A DNA stretch of 64,000 nt, from IMG/VR virus record IMGVR_UViG_2667527664_000002, positions 15,911-79,910 of that record; one strand, given 5' to 3'. Below, piece by piece: positions 9,864 to 53,920 of this stretch. The stretch comes from a virus (lineage: Duplodnaviria > Caudoviricetes). The notes beneath the pieces were generated by a model. The model did not search any database, was not told where the DNA came from, and worked only from the letters and a program-made list of their open reading frames with translations. Made by a program: the position numbers and the translations under genes. Every line of letters begins with the position of its first letter. The stretch's first letter is position 1.

Positions 9864-10544
9864 CTATTTTTTTATTGGTTCATTGAAAGAAGGTGGGTTA
9901 ATATCCATCTTTGTATTATGATTGTTAGGTCCCGGACTAGATAAGTCAAAGTATAGTTTAGAATCTTCAGTAACTCCAAAGTCTCTATTTGAACCTGTAT
10001 CTTTAATCTTATTTAATGCATCTCTAAATAAAGCATTATGAGCTTCTTCTCTGTTAAGTAAGAAGTCTATTGTTTCTCTTACGTATTTATCTTCAATTTG
10101 TCTATATAAGTATTCATATACAACTTTTGCTCTTTGCTCTGATGCTATATTTGATAATAGATCTGCAACTAAGTCTCCTGTTACAGTAACATAATCAGCA
10201 GTCCAAGGTGCTCCTGAAGAGTTTATTAAAAATGGTGATAATCCACTTAATACATGAGTTTCTATTTCTCCAGAATCAACTGCTTGGTAGTCAACATCAT
10301 GTCCATTTAATAAATTTATTGTTTGAGCAACCATTTCCATATGGCTAAGTTCTTCCGCTGCTATATCTAGAAATAAGTCTTTTATCTCTTTATCTTTTAT
10401 TCTAAAACTTTGAGATAAATATTGCATTGCTGCTTTTAGCTCTCCATTTGCCCCTCCTAATTGTTCTTGCATTAAAACTGCATATTGAGGGTTTGGTCTT
10501 TCTACTTTTACTTCTCTAAACAATTTTTTATCGTGTTTAAACAT
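9864..10544 (-). CDS. Manganese catalase (CotJC/YdbD-like family)
   Basis: EQLGG..GEL.AAMQY, EELSH and REEAH motifs. Confidence 0.95.
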   Translation of the reverse strand: MFKHDKKLFREVKVERPNPQYAVLMQEQLGGANGELKAAMQYLSQSFRIKDKEIKDLFLDIAAEELSHMEMVAQTINLLNGHDVDYQAVDSGEIETHVLSGLSPFLINSSGAPWTADYVTVTGDLVADLLSNIASEQRAKVVYEYLYRQIEDKYVRETIDFLLNREEAHNALFRDALNKIKDTGSNRDFGVTEDSKLYFDLSSPGPNNHNTKMDINPPSFNEPIKK

Positions 10545-10814: not shown

Positions 10815-11363
10815 TTAAAAATATCTAAAGCTCTTATAAGCTTTATTCATTCTGTCTTGGTCTATACCTATATAATGCAAGGTTACAGCTGGAGATGAAT
10901 GATTAAATATCTTCTGAAGTAATGCTATATCTTTGGTTTGCTTATAGTAATGATATCCCCATGTTTTTCTCATACTATGAGTTCCTAAACAAGGAACATC
11001 AAATAGTTCTCCCAACTCTTTTAAAATCACATATGCCCTTTCTCTAGAGATAGGCCTATTATAGTTTTTACGTGATTTAATTAAAAAATCATCAGGATCC
11101 TTGTCCTCTACATAATCTTTAATTGCTCTTTTCAGTATTGGGTTTATCTCTATGAATTTTTGTTTCCCTGTTTTCTTTTCTCTTAAGACTATTTGCCTTT
11201 TATCTTTTACATCATATATTCTAAACTTTAATATATCGGATACTCTAAGACCTGTATATATACCCATCATAAATAGAAGGTAGTCTCTTTCATTTGTCTT
11301 TTTTAAATATGAACACATATTTTCTAATGTATCTAAATTTCTAATAGGTTCTACATAGTTCAT
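10815..11363 (-). CDS. Small tyrosine recombinase (catalytic domain only)
   Basis: TGLRVSD, K, HSMRKT, FNH and T..Y catalytic residues. Confidence 0.95.
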   Translation of the reverse strand: MNYVEPIRNLDTLENMCSYLKKTNERDYLLFMMGIYTGLRVSDILKFRIYDVKDKRQIVLREKKTGKQKFIEINPILKRAIKDYVEDKDPDDFLIKSRKNYNRPISRERAYVILKELGELFDVPCLGTHSMRKTWGYHYYKQTKDIALLQKIFNHSSPAVTLHYIGIDQDRMNKAYKSFRYF

Positions 11364-11410: not shown

Positions 11411-11443
11411 AAAAAAGCCAGGTGAGAAAGTCCTGACTTTTTT
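11411..11443. terminator. Intrinsic terminator (identical copy at 52793-52825)
   Basis: AAAAAAGCCAGG-TGAGAAAGT-CCTGACTTTTTT. Confidence 0.7.
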
Positions 11444-11537
11444 GAACGTAATAAGTTGTTGCTAATAAATCTAATAAATGTAACTAGTTTATACTCCATA
11501 CCGCTACAGAGTGCTCTTAAGAGCCGTAAAGTTATAT

Positions 11538-11610
11538 TGGTGAGGGTTAAAAGGAATCGAACCTCTTATCTTCTAAATAAATAGCTATTTTGCCATTAAA
11601 CTATATCCTC
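11538..11610 (-). ncRNA. tRNA-like element with degenerate anticodon arm (copy 1)
   Basis: GAGGATA TA GTTTAATGGCAAAAT A GCTATTTATTTAGAAGAT AAGAGG TTCGATT CCTTTT AACCCTC A CCA: D-arm, T-loop and CCA intact; acceptor stem 5/7 paired. Confidence 0.75.
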
Positions 11611-11746
11611 ACGTTGCTAGGGTAAGTTTATACCCTAGCTATTATATAAAGAGGGGGTTATTAGGAAATAAGCAATTGGGTTATTTTAAATTTCCTATAC
11701 TACTATATTACCACCTCTGAATGTATAAAAAATCTTTACTTTGTCG

Positions 11747-12250
11747 CTAAAATGTAGCCAAAGTGTTGGCTTTGCTATTATTTTCATTAAATAATGGTAG
11801 TTCTTCATAATTTGGATACAACATACCCATAATTTTATAAACTAATCGCTCTCTTACTGTGTAGCAATGACTGCGATCCATGTGTAGCTTAAGGCTTATA
11901 TATTTCATATTATTTTTATTTTTGCTATTATAAAATAATTCAAAGAAATTAGTTTCATTAACATCTAAGCAACTTAATGAGTTTTCTATTTTCGCTTTCT
12001 CTATTTCTTTTTCTAATTTACTTTGCATCAATTTATCTATTTTCTTCTCTTTATCTATAACCTCTTTTTCAACAATTCTAGAAATATTATAAGTTTCACT
12101 TGTTCTTTCATCATAATTTATAGCTCCACAACCTCTATATCTCATTTTCTCTTTCTTTATATCTAATTCTATATTATTTATTTGAGCTTCTAGAAACTTA
12201 TAATTATGCAATCTTAATTCTACTTTTTTAAATAATTCTTTTTTATCCAT
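11747..12250 (-). CDS. Late transcriptional activator (ArpU/RinA-like)
   Basis: Typical N-terminus, C-terminal sigma4-like HTH, position upstream of late genes. Confidence 0.75.
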   Translation of the reverse strand: MDKKELFKKVELRLHNYKFLEAQINNIELDIKKEKMRYRGCGAINYDERTSETYNISRIVEKEVIDKEKKIDKLMQSKLEKEIEKAKIENSLSCLDVNETNFFELFYNSKNKNNMKYISLKLHMDRSHCYTVRERLVYKIMGMLYPNYEELPLFNENNSKANTLATF

Positions 12251-12274: not shown

Positions 12275-12532
12275 TTAATCAATAATATCTTTCATTTCCT
12301 CTAGACATTTTTCACATATAAAAATATTTTTGATGTTTTTTAAATTCTCTTTTGATCCACATAAAATACACGAGTTATTATGTTTTTTAAGCTTAATAAT
12401 TCCATTTTCACATAATATTTCAACCGGATCATTTTCATTTATATTTAACATTTTTCTAAATTCCTTTGGTATTACGATTCTTCCTAGTGAATCGATATTT
12501 CTTACAATGCCTTTATTATTTTTGCCATTCAT
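12275..12532 (-). CDS. AbrB/SpoVT-family regulator with C-terminal CxxC...CxxC
   Basis: GIVRNIDSLGRIVIPKEFR; CILCG...ICEKC. Confidence 0.9.
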   Translation of the reverse strand: MNGKNNKGIVRNIDSLGRIVIPKEFRKMLNINENDPVEILCENGIIKLKKHNNSCILCGSKENLKNIKNIFICEKCLEEMKDIID

Positions 12533-50560: not shown

Positions 50561-52585
50561 TTATAAAAAATCAAAATCACAGTCGGTATTGCTAATTTCT
50601 CTTTCTATTTCTTTTTTCAAATCAATGCACTTTTGATAATTTAAAATAGGTATTGTATTTAAGTCTTTAGCATATAGACAATTTGAATGTTTATAATAAT
50701 TATTAACTTCACTAAATAATTCCAATCTATTTAACCCATTTTTCGGATCATCGTATGTATTTTTATCTATAATATAAAGACCTTCTTCTAATTTATTATG
50801 TAAATCAAATATCGGCATTAAATCATATTCATTTATTATAATCTCTGATTTTTTATGATTCAATAATCTAATTAATGTTGATATTTTAGACTCTTCAGAA
50901 ACTCTAATTCCAATTCCATCACTCATATTTATATATGTTCTATTATATACTTTAGAATTTTCTTTAAAAAAATATCTAAATCTATTTCTCGAATCTTTTT
51001 CATTTCTTAAATCATTTATTTTTTCTTTTTCTAAAATTTTAATTTCAATCAATTTATTTACAAACATCATATTCTTCCTAAATAAAATTTCTTCTTCATC
51101 ATAATTTGTATATATCTCAGAGGTATAAGTAGTATTAATAAATTTTTCAAAATCCTGTAAAATTGGAAGTATTATATATTGCGTAAAACTTGTGTAATCC
51201 ATATCATAATAAAAATCTAATACATTATAATATTTATCTATTTTCCCCTCATTAGATATTATATTTAATATTTTTTCTAAATTTGATTTTGAGTCTAACC
51301 AAATATAGCTAGCTGCAAAATAATCTTGAAAAGATTTATGTACCCATCTATATTGATTTCCTTCTTTTATAAATATAGGTACTGAATGAGTTAAATCATA
51401 TATAAGATCAGATGGTTTAAATTCTATTCCTATTATATTTTCTTTTGCATTGTCTATAATACTTATTAACGTTTCTCTTTGATAGTTAACTCCTTTTGAT
51501 ACTGTATTAAATGCAATATATCTAACTATCTTATGAAAATCTTCTATATCTAGCTTACTTTTCTTATAGTGTACATATGCTCCACCTTTAGACATATCAT
51601 GATCTTCAAATAATGCATCATATACTTGTCTATAGAATATATGTTTTTTATATGGAATTGTCTTTTTATATTCAAATGCTTTATACAATAGCGATACCAT
51701 TAAAGGATTATCTAAAAATTCATTTATTAGTCTAAGATTATCTTCTGTCTTTAACTTATCTACTAATTCTTTAGATAAATCCCCATTATTGTCATATTTA
51801 TAAATTAACTTATACACTTCTTCTTCTTCTAATCTTTTTACATCAAATCTTTGAAAATCACCAAAAGAATTTAATTCATTCTCGTCTCTTGAAGATATTA
51901 TAAATGAATTATTTCCTGATTTAGATATAAATTCTTGTATGTTATCTGTTACAACACTCTTCGACTCATTACTTATTTCATCATAACCATCAAAGAAAAA
52001 TATAAAATCACCTCTTTCAACTAATTCTCTTATTTCGTCTTCATTAAAGTTTACTCTTATTCCATTAATTTCATTCATTATAAATTTAACTATAGATGTA
52101 TCTCCACTTAATTTGCGCAGCTCTATCAATATAGGTATTCCTTTGTTTTGCCTTATCGCACTTAAATACAAATATTTCATTATGGTAGATTTGCCCATAC
52201 CAGCACTATCTACTAATAATATTTTTTTGTAAGCTGGAATAAACTCATCTTTATATTTATCTATGTATACCTCTATAAATTTATCATTACACCCATCTAT
52301 CGACTCTGACTTTTTAACAGTTAATGGTATATACAAATCATCAATTGTTTTTTGTTGATTTTTAAATACAATTGTATTTATATATAAATTCTTCTTATAG
52401 CTTCTTTCTATATATTCAGTAAAATCATGCGTTATAAAATCTATTTCAGTTTTATTTAATTTACCTTTAATATCTTCTAATTTAGGCTTTACATATACGT
52501 TTACCATTGCTTTTGAAAGTTCTGTAATCCCAGCACTAACCCCTAAACTTATTCCTGCCTTAATTGCTTCTAACTGTAAATTCAT
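50561..52585 (-). CDS. NACHT (STAND) NTPase, candidate anti-phage protein
   Basis: AGMGKST Walker A, FFFDGYDE Walker B, SSR, NPLM, W.HKSFQDYFAA. Confidence 0.9.
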   Translation of the reverse strand: MNLQLEAIKAGISLGVSAGITELSKAMVNVYVKPKLEDIKGKLNKTEIDFITHDFTEYIERSYKKNLYINTIVFKNQQKTIDDLYIPLTVKKSESIDGCNDKFIEVYIDKYKDEFIPAYKKILLVDSAGMGKSTIMKYLYLSAIRQNKGIPILIELRKLSGDTSIVKFIMNEINGIRVNFNEDEIRELVERGDFIFFFDGYDEISNESKSVVTDNIQEFISKSGNNSFIISSRDENELNSFGDFQRFDVKRLEEEEVYKLIYKYDNNGDLSKELVDKLKTEDNLRLINEFLDNPLMVSLLYKAFEYKKTIPYKKHIFYRQVYDALFEDHDMSKGGAYVHYKKSKLDIEDFHKIVRYIAFNTVSKGVNYQRETLISIIDNAKENIIGIEFKPSDLIYDLTHSVPIFIKEGNQYRWVHKSFQDYFAASYIWLDSKSNLEKILNIISNEGKIDKYYNVLDFYYDMDYTSFTQYIILPILQDFEKFINTTYTSEIYTNYDEEEILFRKNMMFVNKLIEIKILEKEKINDLRNEKDSRNRFRYFFKENSKVYNRTYINMSDGIGIRVSEESKISTLIRLLNHKKSEIIINEYDLMPIFDLHNKLEEGLYIIDKNTYDDPKNGLNRLELFSEVNNYYKHSNCLYAKDLNTIPILNYQKCIDLKKEIEREISNTDCDFDFL

Positions 52586-52916
52586 TAATTACCTCCATAA
52601 AATAATCTTTAACTATCATTTCATTTCGACATATTATTATTTTTTCCTTCTTTTTTCTTGAATTTATCAAAATTAGTCTTCTTACTCATTTCTCTATCAA
52701 AATCCCTTAACGCACTTGGCAGCTCATAGATCATCTTAATTACTTCATCAACATCTTTTCACTTTTTCATATATTCACCCTTTTACACAAATAAAAAAGC
52801 CAGGTGAGAAAGTCCTGACTTTTTTAAATGGATAAGTTGTTGTTACTAACTAATAAATGTAAGTAGTTTATACTCCATACCTCTATAGAGTGCTCTTAAT
52901 AGCCGTAAAGTTATAT

Positions 52917-52985
52917 TGGTGAGAATTAAAGGAATCGAACCTTCTATCATCTAAATTAGATATTTTACCATTAAACTATATTCTC
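52917..52985 (-). ncRNA. tRNA-like element lacking an anticodon loop (copy 2)
   Basis: GAGAATA TA GTTTAATGGTAAAAT ATCTA-ATT-TAGAT GATA GAAGG TTCGATT CCTTT AATTCTC A CCA. Confidence 0.75.
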
Positions 52986-53120
52986 ACGTTGCTAGGATAA
53001 TTATTATACCCTAGCAATTATATAAAAAGGGGTATTGGGGAATAAGAAATTATGTTATCTTCAATTTCCTATACTACTATATTACCACCTTTTTATTTGT
53101 AAAAAATCTTCACTTTGTAG

Positions 53121-53624
53121 TTAAAATGTAGTCAAAGTGTTGGGTTGCATATCATATTCATTGAATAATGGTAATTCTTCATAATTAGGATATAGCATCC
53201 CCATAACTTTATAAACTAATCTTTCTCTAATCTTATAGCAATGACTGCGATCCATATGTAATTTTATACTTATATACTTCATGTTATTTTTGCTTTTACT
53301 GTTATAGAATAATTTAAAGAAATTAGTTTCATTGTGGTCTAAGCAGCTTAATGAGTTTTCTATCTTCTCTTTCTCTATTTCTTTTTCTAATTTACTTTGC
53401 ATCAACTTGGCTATTTTCTTTTCTTTAGCTATAACCTCTTTTTCAACACTCCTAGAAATATTATAGGTTACACCTGTTCTTTCATCATAACTTATGGCCC
53501 CACAACCTCTATATTCCAGTTTCTCTTTCTTTATATCTAATTCTATATTACTTATTTGAGCTTCTAAAAACTTATAATTATGTAATCTTCCTTCTACCTT
53601 TTTAAATAGTTCTTTTTTTTCCAT
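53121..53624 (-). CDS. Late transcriptional activator (ArpU/RinA-like)
   Basis: Close homolog of 11747..12250. Confidence 0.75.
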   Translation of the reverse strand: MEKKELFKKVEGRLHNYKFLEAQISNIELDIKKEKLEYRGCGAISYDERTGVTYNISRSVEKEVIAKEKKIAKLMQSKLEKEIEKEKIENSLSCLDHNETNFFKLFYNSKSKNNMKYISIKLHMDRSHCYKIRERLVYKVMGMLYPNYEELPLFNEYDMQPNTLTTF

Positions 53625-53647: not shown

Positions 53648-53920
53648 TTAACTTATAATATCTTTCATTTCCTCTAGACATTTTTCACATATTAAAATAT
53701 TTTTTACATTTTTTAAATCTTCTTTTGATCCACATAAAATACATGAATCATTATGTTTTTTTACTGTAATAGCTCCATTTTCACATACTATTTCAACAGG
53801 CTCATTTTCCTTTATATTTAACATTTTTCTAAATTCTTTTGGTATTACAACTCTTCCTAATGAGTCTATATTTCTTATAATTCCTTTATTTGTTTTGCCA
53901 TTCATACTATCACCCTCCAC
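53648..53920 (-). CDS. AbrB/SpoVT-family regulator
   Basis: Close homolog of 12275..12532. Confidence 0.9.
   Translation of the reverse strand: MEGDSMNGKTNKGIIRNIDSLGRVVIPKEFRKMLNIKENEPVEIVCENGAITVKKHNDSCILCGSKEDLKNVKNILICEKCLEEMKDIIS

What the first reader, a model, noticed from the sequence alone, without database searches (positions are those of the whole stretch)
11411..11745. Conserved late-leader RNA containing an anticodon-defective tRNA mimic, present in both prophages
Seen: downstream of each late activator the same order occurs (11411-11745 and 52793-53120). It runs: 5' hairpin (GCTAGGGTA..TACCCTAGC), tRNA-like unit, two small hairpins, identical terminator. The unit keeps the D-arm (TAGTTTAATGG.AAAA), T-loop GGTTCGATTCC and 3' ACCA. 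Acceptor pair 4 covaries (G-C vs A-T) and a downstream stem changes G-U to A-U. The anticodon arm is collapsed differently in each copy (copy 2 has a 5-bp stem and 3-nt loop). Inference: selection acts on the elbow and acceptor end, not on decoding. Possible roles are an RNase P/Z processing signal, a decoy for tRNA-targeting defences or toxins, or an element controlling read-through into late genes.
Basis: partly seen in the sequence, partly recalled or inferred. Interest (0 to 1): 0.8.

Follow-up and report, generated by a model that had tools for sequence, protein, structure and literature searches.

The report
Worn tRNA inside phage late leader
Both prophages carry, in the control region ahead of their packaging genes, a leftover phage tRNA-Glu gene that can no longer read codons, and related phages show this tRNA-shaped piece with many different or missing anticodon arms, so it is either a slowly decaying passenger or an RNA-processing signal rather than a working tRNA.

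Summary
It lies on the minus strand at 11411-11745 and 52793-53120. Each copy follows a RinA-like regulator gene and has the same order: repeats, promoter, hairpin 1, hairpin 2, tRNA-like unit, two hairpins, terminator.

Rfam's tRNA model scores both units above its gathering score (48.1 and 31.6 bits). ARAGORN finds no tRNA, because the anticodon loop is deleted.

I collected 70 unique related leaders from Peptostreptococcaceae-type prophages. Sixty carry a cloverleaf unit, 7 carry only an acceptor/T-arm minihelix, and 3 carry nothing there. Of 35 unique cloverleaf units, 14 have a normal 7-nt anticodon loop (11 Glu-UUC). The other 21 have shrunken loops or a 58-83-nt insert. The elbow nucleotides never vary, and the T and acceptor stems show compensatory changes.

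So the unit derives from a phage tRNA-Glu gene and does not decode here. Whether its body is still under selection is suggestive, not shown. Copy 1 also has acceptor mismatches and a T-stem bulge.

The part every leader keeps is an 8-bp hairpin with a GNGG loop followed by AUAAAC, then a terminator just ahead of the first late gene. That part, not the tRNA, is the likely read-through device. This is a new variant of a known kind.

The parts
11747..12250 (-). RinA/ArpU-like late regulator gene of prophage 1 (167 aa)
   Evidence: ORF. PHROG 36 'transcriptional regulator', E 1.1e-24. RinA TIGR01636 at E 0.0023, which is below its cut-off. No Pfam match.
11741..11770 (-). Direct repeats (CAACAC / GCTACA / GCGACA, about 11-nt spacing) overlapping the 3' end of the regulator gene. 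Putative regulator boxes.
   Evidence: Read. Each regulator type has its own repeat set in relatives, in phiCD418 and in phiCT453B. Binding was not tested.
11702..11729 (-). Promoter-like site: TTTATA, 16 nt, TATAGT, overlapping TGGTAATAT (extended -10 type)
   Evidence: The number of sites is not above shuffles. A TGnTAWTAT-like box is kept in most of the relatives' leaders shown; the L034/L054 and L052 types have TATAAT or TAAAAT instead.
11663..11696 (-). Hairpin 1 (AGGAAAU..AUUUCCU)
   Evidence: MFE fold. Relatives have different sequences that also form a hairpin at this place.
11616..11639 (-). Hairpin 2, 9 bp, ending 5 nt before the tRNA-like unit
   Evidence: A hairpin of at least 6 bp ends within 9 nt of the unit in 63 of 67 unique leaders that have a unit.
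11538..11610 (-). tRNA-Glu-derived, non-decoding tRNA-like unit, copy 1. It has a collapsed anticodon arm, two acceptor mismatches, an extra U at the T/acceptor junction, and an encoded ACCA.
   Evidence: Rfam tRNA 31.6 bits. No ARAGORN call. Arm table, alignment.
11513..11524 (-). Hairpin 3 (GCUC UUAA GAGC)
   Evidence: MFE fold. The loop and stem length vary in relatives.
11487..11512 (-). Near-invariant 3' motif: 8-bp hairpin ACUCUGUA-GCGG-UAUGGAGU followed by AUAAAC
   Evidence: It is present in all 26 loci found through the regulator protein. The positions left free in the search pattern stay paired in 42 of 44 and 43 of 44 unique cores.
11411..11445 (-). Intrinsic terminator (12-bp stem, 9-nt loop, U6). 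The next ORF starts 47 nt downstream.
   Evidence: MFE fold. Identical in copy 2. ORF.
53121..53624 (-). RinA/ArpU-like late regulator gene of prophage 2 (167 aa)
   Evidence: ORF. PHROG 36, E 6.5e-28.
53076..53103 (-). Promoter-like site of copy 2: TTTACA, 16 nt, TATAGT (10 of 12 matches)
52991..53015 (-). Hairpin 2 of copy 2
52917..52985 (-). tRNA-like unit, copy 2. Acceptor 6 of 7 pairs, D arm and T arm intact, anticodon loop reduced to 1-3 nt, encoded ACCA.
   Evidence: Rfam tRNA 48.1 bits, with 6 of 7 loop positions deleted. Arm table.
52866..52891 (-). 3' motif of copy 2 (ACUCUAUA-GAGG-UAUGGAGU plus AUAAAC)
52793..52826 (-). Intrinsic terminator of copy 2

Best explanation
Shown: each element is the leader of a prophage late operon. 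A RinA/ArpU-type regulator gene is followed by regulator-box repeats, a promoter, two hairpins and a unit derived from a phage tRNA-Glu(UUC) gene. Then come hairpin 3, a near-invariant 8-bp hairpin with a GNGG loop plus AUAAAC, and an intrinsic terminator that transcription must cross to reach the packaging genes. In this window both tRNA units have lost the anticodon loop and cannot decode.

Inferred: the unit persists as a tRNA-shaped module. Its acceptor/T-arm helix and D/T elbow are what RNase P, and the 3' tRNA-end enzymes, recognise. It would therefore punctuate the leader transcript. Cleavage at AACGU|G would leave an upstream fragment capped by hairpin 2 and a downstream RNA that starts near hairpin 3. 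The module is useful but dispensable.

Also inferred: control of read-through lies in the invariant hairpin motif and the terminator, not in the tRNA unit.
For: Layout:
- The regulator matches PHROG 36 in both window copies, L025, L054 and phiCT453B. The phiCD418 homologue is annotated RinA.
- terS and terL lie downstream.
- The first late ORF starts about 22 nt after the U-tract in L025, and similarly close in L054, so transcription must read through the terminator.

tRNA origin:
- ARAGORN calls a tRNA in 23 of 59 unique relatives (13 Glu-ttc, 6 Lys-ttt, 1 Ser-tga, 1 Pro-tgg, 2 with a 6-nt loop).
- Intact units score 55-63 bits with RF00005.
- The cloverleaf is 93.2% paired against 84.1% in shuffles (0 of 500 shuffles reach it). 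Four of 5 T-stem pairs and 3 of 5 anticodon-stem pairs change on both sides.
- No host tRNA in 4 genomes resembles it.

Free anticodon domain on a kept body:
- 21 of 35 unique units lack a canonical loop.
- The three insertion-type units keep 7 of 7 acceptor and 5 of 5 T pairs, although their inserts are only 66 of 82 identical.
- The 6-nt-loop units (L026, L028) and the L042/L075 units also keep perfect stems.
- The T-loop T54, T55, C56 and A58 and one D-loop G are identical in all 32 aligned units, and the D-loop GG pair is present in every row.
- Pair-keeping changes occur inside the defective lineage: acceptor pair 4 goes G-C to G-U to A-U, and T-stem pair 50-64 goes A-U to U-A in L132.
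- Seven unique leaders carry, at the same AACGU|G junction, a 12-bp acceptor/T-like minihelix with a 7-nt loop and nothing else.

Motif:
- It is present in 26 of 26 protein-anchored loci.
- Its free stem positions stay paired (G-U 18, G-C 13, A-U 11, unpaired 2, of 44).
Against: - No cleavage or RNA-end data exist. The RNA libraries available are contigs only.
- Three of 70 unique leaders have no unit at all. Any role is therefore dispensable.
- Copy 1 and its clade have 4-5 of 7 acceptor pairs and a bulged T stem. L140, L071 and L014 have further disruptive changes. RF00005 scores run from 63 bits down to below threshold. This looks like ordinary decay.
- The unit is less variable than the unstructured flanks in the copy-1 clade (13.7% against 33-35%). 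But it is the most variable segment but one in the L025 clade (14.7% against 2.7% and 6.5%). Phage mosaicism confounds both figures.
- The encoded CCA is lost in L042/L075 and in 2 of 3 insertion-type units.
- All but 26 loci were collected through the motif, so leaders without the motif were not sampled.
Confidence: 0.45

Rival explanations
1. Neutral decay. A dispensable passenger tRNA-Glu gene sits in the late leader and is being lost step by step: an anticodon lesion first, then stem mismatches, then a minihelix remnant, then deletion. The remains have no function of their own.
For: - There is a graded series of RF00005 scores: 55-63 bits for intact units, 42-48 for the copy-2 type, 31.6 for the copy-1 type, and below threshold for L071, L026, L042 and L019.
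- Disruptive acceptor changes and a T-run insertion occur in the copy-1 clade, and L140 has 4 of 7 acceptor pairs.
- Three leaders have no unit.
- L130 keeps only the ..ACCA tail before the 3' region.
- The tRNA is among the most variable segments in the L025 clade.
- Earlier scan notes report worn tRNAs in late leaders of other phages (leads only).
Against: - Lesions cluster in the anticodon arm. Several independent events hit it on four different T-arm backbones, while the elbow nucleotides never change.
- Old, diverged insertion-type units keep perfect acceptor and T stems.
- Compensatory changes occur inside defective lineages.
- The minihelix keeps a 12-bp stack at the same junction.
Confidence: 0.33
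2. Decoy or sponge. The non-decoding tRNA-shaped RNA, made in quantity from the late promoter, soaks up a host defence or toxin that recognises the tRNA body, tail or elbow rather than the anticodon.
For: - The body, elbow and ACCA are kept without an anticodon in both window copies.
- The anticodon arm changes fast, and the anticodons seen are UUC and UUU.
- tRNA-targeting defences, and phage tRNAs that escape them, are described in PMC10264068, PMC11555353, PMC12851939 and PMC13056530 (search listing and start of abstracts only).
Against: - No such defence was identified next to these prophages.
- Three leaders lack the unit and several units lack CCA.
- Nothing links the unit to any nuclease.
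Confidence: 0.08
3. The tRNA-like unit is itself part of the device that lets RNA polymerase read through the leader terminator.
For: The unit lies between the late promoter and the terminator in 67 of 70 unique leaders, counting the minihelix forms.
Against: - L064, L130 and L137 keep promoter, motif and terminator without the unit.
- The unit's sequence varies while the terminator types change independently.
- phiCT453B has the same promoter-leader-terminator layout with no tRNA.
Confidence: 0.05
4. DNA-level role: the tRNA-like sequence is an attachment or recombination site, for instance for the small tyrosine recombinase encoded just downstream in prophage 1.
For: - tRNA genes are common integration targets (established knowledge).
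- A 182-aa Phage_integrase-domain ORF follows the terminator of copy 1.
- The region after the terminator is a variable cargo slot.
Against: - Only some of the related leaders shown (L003, L004, L008, L010, L071), and not copy 2, have that ORF after the terminator.
- Cargo variation starts after the terminator, about 130 nt (about 95 nt to the terminator stem) from the unit.
- Stem covariation points to RNA-level constraint.
Confidence: 0.03

Closest known systems
Ltr-type (RinA, ArpU) late-operon control regions of temperate phages of Gram-positive bacteria (RinA: PMC3152322, abstract seen in a search listing)
   Same: A small regulator gene lies directly upstream of the packaging genes. Its target promoter sits in the gap between them, with repeats ahead of the -10 box. 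phiCD418 (annotated RinA) and phiCT453B show the same repeats plus extended -10, and phiCT453B also shows the leader and terminator.
   Different: Here the leader is about 290 nt and holds a tRNA-derived unit, an invariant hairpin motif and a strong terminator directly before the first late ORF. The window's regulator reaches only a sub-threshold RinA score.
tRNA genes in the late leader of lambdoid Stx phages (ileZ-argN-argO between pR'/tR' and stx in 933W; recalled, no call), and the short RNA terminated at tR' (StxS, PMC7547250, abstract in a listing)
   Same: tRNA genes sit between a late promoter with its leader terminator and the late genes. Late expression needs read-through.
   Different: Those tRNAs are intact decoders, and the antiterminator (Q) is known. 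Here the tRNA is degraded, and no antiterminator is identified.
t-elements of plant mitochondria and other tRNA-like RNase P/Z processing signals (PMC1920247, abstract in a listing). RNase P processing of phage P1/P7 C4 RNA is recalled, no call.
   Same: A tRNA-shaped structure without decoding function lies inside a longer transcript. The acceptor/T-arm helix and elbow are kept and the anticodon domain is free.
   Different: Cleavage has not been shown here. The unit is clearly derived from a recent real tRNA gene and is absent from some relatives.
Cis-acting processive antitermination RNAs: put of HK022, EAR of B. subtilis, canT of Tn916 (PMC11658703, abstract and sections 16 and 21 read)
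   Same: This concerns the invariant hairpin motif, not the tRNA unit. It is a conserved leader RNA upstream of a terminator that must be crossed, in a mobile element of Firmicutes.
   Different: No Rfam family other than tRNA matched the leader convincingly at E up to 10. No functional test was done. The motif is only about 26 nt.

Membership tests
tRNA (Rfam RF00005) | Cloverleaf scoring at or above the family's gathering score (29 bits) | tested here: met
   Copy 2 scores 48.1 bits and copy 1 scores 31.6 bits.
tRNA (Rfam RF00005) | 7-nt anticodon loop with U33 and an anticodon | tested here: not met
   Six of 7 loop positions are deleted in copy 2. Copy 1 has a different irregular remnant. 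ARAGORN makes no call in the window.
tRNA (Rfam RF00005) | Seven-pair acceptor stem stacked directly on a five-pair T stem | tested here: inconclusive
   Copy 2 has 6 of 7 and 5 of 5 pairs, the same as its intact relatives. Copy 1 has 5 of 7 pairs plus one extra U at the junction.
tRNA (Rfam RF00005) | Aminoacylation and decoding | not testable with these tools
   This needs a charging assay. The loop deletions make decoding implausible.
Ltr (RinA/ArpU) late control region | Ltr-family regulator encoded directly upstream | tested here: inconclusive
   PHROG 36 at E 1e-24 and 6.5e-28. RinA TIGR01636 scores 18.1 bits against a cut-off of 31.9, and ArpU TIGR01637 scores 12.1 against 43.1. No Pfam match.
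Ltr (RinA/ArpU) late control region | Lies upstream of terS/terL, with the promoter in the gap | tested here: met
   terS (Pfam Terminase_4) and a terL-type ORF lie downstream in prophage 1. Prophage 2 has the same order by ORF listing only. The same order occurs in L054 and L025.
Ltr (RinA/ArpU) late control region | Regulator binds the repeats and activates the promoter | not testable with these tools
   Regulator-type-specific repeats were seen. No binding data.
tRNA-like RNase P/Z processing element (t-element type) | 12-bp acceptor/T-arm helix with a T-loop/D-loop elbow, no decoding | tested here: met
   The minihelix relatives have a 5+7-bp stack with a 7-nt loop.
tRNA-like RNase P/Z processing element (t-element type) | Endonucleolytic cleavage at the unit's borders in vivo or in vitro | not testable with these tools
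   Only assembled contigs of RNA runs were available.
Cis-acting antitermination RNA (put, EAR, canT) | Similarity to a described family | tested here: not met
   The only credible Rfam match in either leader at E up to 10 (copy 1) or 1 (copy 2) was tRNA; the other listed matches scored far below their gathering scores and look like chance.
Cis-acting antitermination RNA (put, EAR, canT) | Confers read-through of downstream terminators in cis | not testable with these tools
   Only the layout is shown: a terminator lies about 22-47 nt before the first downstream ORF.
tmRNA or bacterial Y-RNA-like tRNA-like domains | Match to the family model | tested here: not met
   No tmRNA by ARAGORN. No Rfam match.

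The most novel reading that the evidence does not exclude
The tRNA-shaped body is kept by selection for a job that has nothing to do with decoding, and its anticodon domain is free to shrink, grow or vanish. One possibility is that late-phase mass production of an acceptor/elbow/CCA decoy blunts host defences that attack tRNA bodies or tails. Another is that RNase P cleavage at the unit is a timed step that frees the invariant GNGG-hairpin RNA to make RNA polymerase terminator-resistant. Together with earlier scan notes of worn tRNAs in late leaders of unrelated phages, this would make 'anticodon-less tRNA modules in late leaders' a general phage device.
Probability: 0.12. Interest if true: 0.8.

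Novelty: new variant of a known kind. Interest (0 to 1): 0.55.

Why it matters
Phage tRNA genes are usually discussed as codon helpers or, more recently, as replacements for tRNAs cut by host defences. This family gives a natural series in which one phage tRNA gene, fixed in one slot of a late-operon leader, appears in several forms. It is intact, point-mutated in the anticodon, loop-deleted, expanded by a 58-83-nt arm, reduced to a minihelix, or absent.

If the body is under selection, this is a bacterial and phage counterpart of the organellar t-elements. It would also be a handle on how late transcripts are processed.

Separately, the leader shows an invariant small hairpin plus a terminator in front of the packaging genes. 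That makes read-through control of late genes in RinA-type phages directly testable. My searches found no paper on either point.

Tried and rejected
- blastn of the copy-1 leader against the phage collection gave no match. Leaders of L054 and L025 matched only short pieces, within or beside the regulator genes of Clostridioides phages. phiCD418 has the repeats, promoter and two hairpins but no tRNA or motif.
- A relaxed motif pattern (15 fixed bases) added only chance hits in coding regions: 0 true members among the 40 new loci shown.
- RNA evidence: 13 rows on record as RNA hold part of the stretch. I laid 4 runs from 4 studies. All were assembled contigs that cover the leader but give no ends, strand or level. 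One run has adapter-flanked contig ends at 11457 and 12218, which I do not interpret.
- Variable-site density as a test of constraint gave opposite answers in different clades, so I rejected it as decisive.
- Host-tRNA origin or gene conversion: no similar tRNA in 4 host genomes.
- Classical attenuation (motif pairing with the terminator arm) is rejected. The motif is invariant while the terminator stems belong to several unrelated sequence types.
- A small ORF starting at the AUG inside the motif is rejected. The AUG is not conserved.
- cos or pac site is rejected. The two window prophages have unlike large terminases (573 aa with an HNH-like ORF nearby, against 448 aa) but the same motif.
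- Family-wide spread: 7 of 112 species genomes of the family of G001 hold the 3' core.
Full report
**What is there**

The finding lies on the minus strand. The two copies, 11411-11745 and 52793-53120, align over about 340 nt. Identity is 87% by BLAST and 91% by mean column identity. The terminators are identical.

Each copy starts right after a 167-aa ORF (11747-12250 and 53121-53624). That ORF matches PHROG 36 'transcriptional regulator' (E 1e-24 and 6.5e-28). It reaches RinA and ArpU models only below their cut-offs and has no Pfam match.

Downstream lie cargo genes and then the terminase genes:
- Prophage 1 has a 182-aa integrase-domain ORF, a Mn-catalase and a possible HNH-type zinc-ribbon ORF, then terS and terL.
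- Prophage 2 has a 674-aa NACHT-type NTPase, then terS- and terL-sized ORFs (named from the ORF listing only).

The window is part of a 79.9-kb provirus record.

**Anatomy of the leader**

Read 5' to 3' on the minus strand, copy 1 has the following parts:
- direct repeats overlapping the end of the regulator gene
- a promoter-like site (TTTATA, 16 nt, TATAGT, overlapping TGGTAATAT)
- hairpin 1
- a C-rich linker
- hairpin 2 (11616-11639)
- the tRNA-like unit (11610-11538)
- hairpin 3
- an 8-bp hairpin ACUCUGUA-GCGG-UAUGGAGU followed by AUAAAC (11512-11487)
- a spacer
- a 12-bp terminator with U6 (11445-11411)

Copy 2 has the same order. Both leaders fold better than all 200 shuffles (z -4.28 and -3.96). 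The count of promoter-like sites is not above chance. My support for the promoter is that a TGnTAWTAT-like box is kept in most of the relatives shown.

**The tRNA-like unit in the window**

ARAGORN finds no tRNA in the window. Rfam's tRNA model gives the only two gathering-level matches in the window: 48.1 bits for copy 2 and 31.6 bits for copy 1, against a threshold of 29.

In copy 2 the acceptor (6 of 7 pairs), D and T arms and the encoded ACCA are in place. Six of the 7 anticodon-loop positions are missing.

Copy 1 has a different remnant that is 3 nt longer. It also has two acceptor mismatches and an extra U where the T stem meets the acceptor stem.

**Relatives**

Searching with the regulator protein gave 26 viral loci. 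All 26 hold the leader.

The near-invariant motif was then used as a pattern:
- It found 58 stretches in viral contigs.
- It found 5 in species genomes: Paraclostridium tenue, P. dentum, a Paraclostridium MAG, a Romboutsia MAG and an Anaerovoracaceae MAG.
- It found 10 in metagenome contigs.
- Seven of 112 species genomes of that family hold the 3' core.

After removing duplicates there are 70 unique full-length leaders. Sixty have a cloverleaf unit, 7 have a minihelix and 3 have no unit. The family is narrow. Apart from the 26 protein-anchored loci, it was collected through the motif, so leaders without the motif were not sampled.

**The unit is a degraded phage tRNA-Glu gene**

ARAGORN calls a tRNA in 23 of 59 unique relatives: 13 Glu(ttc), 6 Lys(ttt), 1 Ser(tga), 1 Pro(tgg) and 2 with a 6-nt loop.

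RF00005 scores form a series:

| Unit type | RF00005 score |
|---|---|
| Intact | 55-63 bits |
| Copy-2 type | 42-48 bits |
| Insertion type | 42-43.5 bits |
| L034 | 37.8 bits |
| Copy-1 type | 31.6 bits |
| L071, L026, L042, L019 | no match listed at gathering level |

On 32 unique units the cloverleaf is 93.2% paired, against 84.1% in shuffles (0 of 500 reach it). Changes on both sides occur in 4 of 5 T-stem pairs and 3 of 5 anticodon-stem pairs. No host tRNA in four host genomes resembles the unit. It is therefore a phage-lineage tRNA, not a recent copy of a host gene.

**A free anticodon domain on a kept body**

Of 35 unique units, 14 have a 7-nt loop with U33: 11 UUC, 1 UUU, 1 UGA and 1 UGG. 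The other 21 are as follows:
- 2 have a 6-nt loop.
- 2 have a short irregular arm.
- 14 are collapsed (5 of copy-2 type, 9 of copy-1 type).
- 3 carry 58-83 nt in place of the arm.

These lesions sit on different T-arm backbones, so they arose several times. The inserts are 66 of 82 identical between L131 and L074 and fold into a long irregular hairpin. Even so, these units keep 7 of 7 acceptor and 5 of 5 T pairs.

The T-loop T54, T55, C56 and A58 and one D-loop G are identical in all 32 units, and the D-loop GG pair is present in every row.

Two pair-keeping paths lie inside the defective lineage. Acceptor pair 4 goes G-C to G-U to A-U, ending in copy 2. T-stem pair 50-64 goes A-U to U-A in L132.

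Seven leaders carry no cloverleaf at the same AACGU|G junction. Instead they have GCAAG, a 9-nt bulge, UUGUUGG, a 7-nt loop, CCAACAA and CUUGC. This is a 12-bp stack with the topology of a tRNA lacking nucleotides 8-48.

**Evidence for plain decay**

- The copy-1 clade has 4-5 of 7 acceptor pairs and a variable U-run at the T/acceptor junction. L140, L071 and L014 have further disruptive changes. CCA is lost in L042/L075 and in 2 of 3 insertion units.
- Three leaders (L064, L130, L137) have no unit but keep promoter, motif and terminator. L130 keeps only ..ACCA before the 3' region.
- Variable-site density gives mixed answers. In the copy-1 clade (23 leaders) the unit has 13.7% variable sites, against 33% and 35% in hairpin 1/linker and spacer. 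In the copy-2 clade (9 leaders) the figures are 7.2% against 11% and 33%.
- In the L025 clade (6 leaders) the unit has 14.7%, against 2.7% and 6.5% for the 5' segments.
- Phage mosaicism confounds these counts, so I do not treat them as a test.

**The invariant core and the terminator**

The 8-bp hairpin with a GNGG loop plus AUAAAC is in every leader collected, including the three without a tRNA.

At the stem positions that my search pattern left free, pair 6-15 is G-U 18, G-C 13, A-U 11 and unpaired 2, of 44 unique cores. Pair 5-16 is U-G 39, U-A 4 and U-U 1. This argues for an RNA hairpin rather than a DNA site.

Terminator stems belong to several unrelated sequence types while the motif stays the same. 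Motif-terminator alternative pairing is therefore unlikely.

The first late ORF begins about 22 nt after the U-tract in L025, and similarly close in L054. Late genes therefore need read-through.

The C. tetani phage phiCT453B has the same general layout with no tRNA and no motif. It has a PHROG 36 regulator, three GGGACAAAGTT repeats, an extended -10, a leader of about 120 nt and a terminator. The terminator-bearing leader is thus a wider theme, and the tRNA is cargo of this family.

**Mechanism**

I rank the readings as follows:
- First (0.45): the unit is a non-decoding relic kept as a tRNA-shaped processing or folding module. The hairpin motif and terminator carry the read-through control. 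Origin, loss of decoding and layout are shown. Cleavage by RNase P and any benefit are inferred.
- Second (0.33): neutral decay.
- Decoy for tRNA-targeting defences (0.08). The relevant defences were seen only in a listing and abstract starts.
- A direct role of the unit in read-through (0.05). The tRNA-less leaders contradict this.
- A DNA attachment site (0.03).

**Literature and earlier notes**

Five paper searches found nothing on a tRNA-derived unit in such leaders.

I read the abstract and sections 16 and 21 of PMC11658703 (canT of Tn916). It gives a precedent for cis-acting antitermination RNA in Firmicute mobile elements. All other papers were seen as listings or abstract starts only. 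Supplements were closed.

Earlier notes of this scan describe worn tRNAs or tRNA-derived hairpins in late leaders of other phages. They are unchecked leads that agree with the layout found here.

**Verdict**

This is a new variant of a known kind: tRNA-derived, non-decoding elements in transcripts, and tRNA genes in phage late leaders. Interest is 0.55.

Noticed in passing
window 50561-52585 (-): A 674-aa NACHT-type STAND NTPase (Pfam SNaCT5 E 1.8e-18, NACHT E 3.2e-06) sits as cargo between the copy-2 leader terminator and terS. It looks like an anti-phage defence gene carried in the late-leader cargo slot.
   Followed up: partly
window 10815-11363 (-) and 9864-10544 (-): In prophage 1 the cargo after the copy-1 terminator is a 182-aa tyrosine-recombinase catalytic-domain-only ORF (Phage_integrase, PHROG 216) and a Mn-catalase ORF. 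Both lie ahead of a possible HNH-type zinc-ribbon ORF, terS and terL.
   Followed up: partly
window about 52750-52780 (-): The small ORF that follows the terminator in many relatives (MKKWKDADEV...) has TGA at codon 4 in copy 2 where relatives have TGG. It appears to be broken in this prophage.
   Followed up: no
L054:3119-3543 (-): In the L054-type leaders, hairpin 2 (GGCTAGATTAATCCCAGCTCTAGCC) is nearly the same sequence as the leader's own terminator stem-loop (GGCTAGATTAATTTCTAGCC), without the U-tract. In L034, hairpin 2 resembles the window's terminator. Hairpin 2 and the terminators seem to be drawn from one pool of hairpins.
   Followed up: no
L127:1430-1854 (-), L021 and L131: Some leaders carry a second, shortened copy of the invariant hairpin (ACTCGTGTTGAGTATAAAG) directly before the full motif. 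This is a tandem duplication of the hairpin plus AUAAA.
   Followed up: no
L164 (phiCT453B) 2100-2330: This C. tetani phage shows three GGGACAAAGTT repeats, TGTGGTAGAAT, a leader of about 120 nt and a terminator right before the first late ORF. It is the same promoter-leader-terminator logic with unrelated sequence.
   Followed up: partly
window 12275-12532 (-) and 53648-53920 (-): An 85-90-aa AbrB/MazE-like protein with a C-terminal zinc-ribbon-like CxxC pair is encoded directly upstream of the regulator in both prophages. It is absent from that position in L025 and L054.
   Followed up: no
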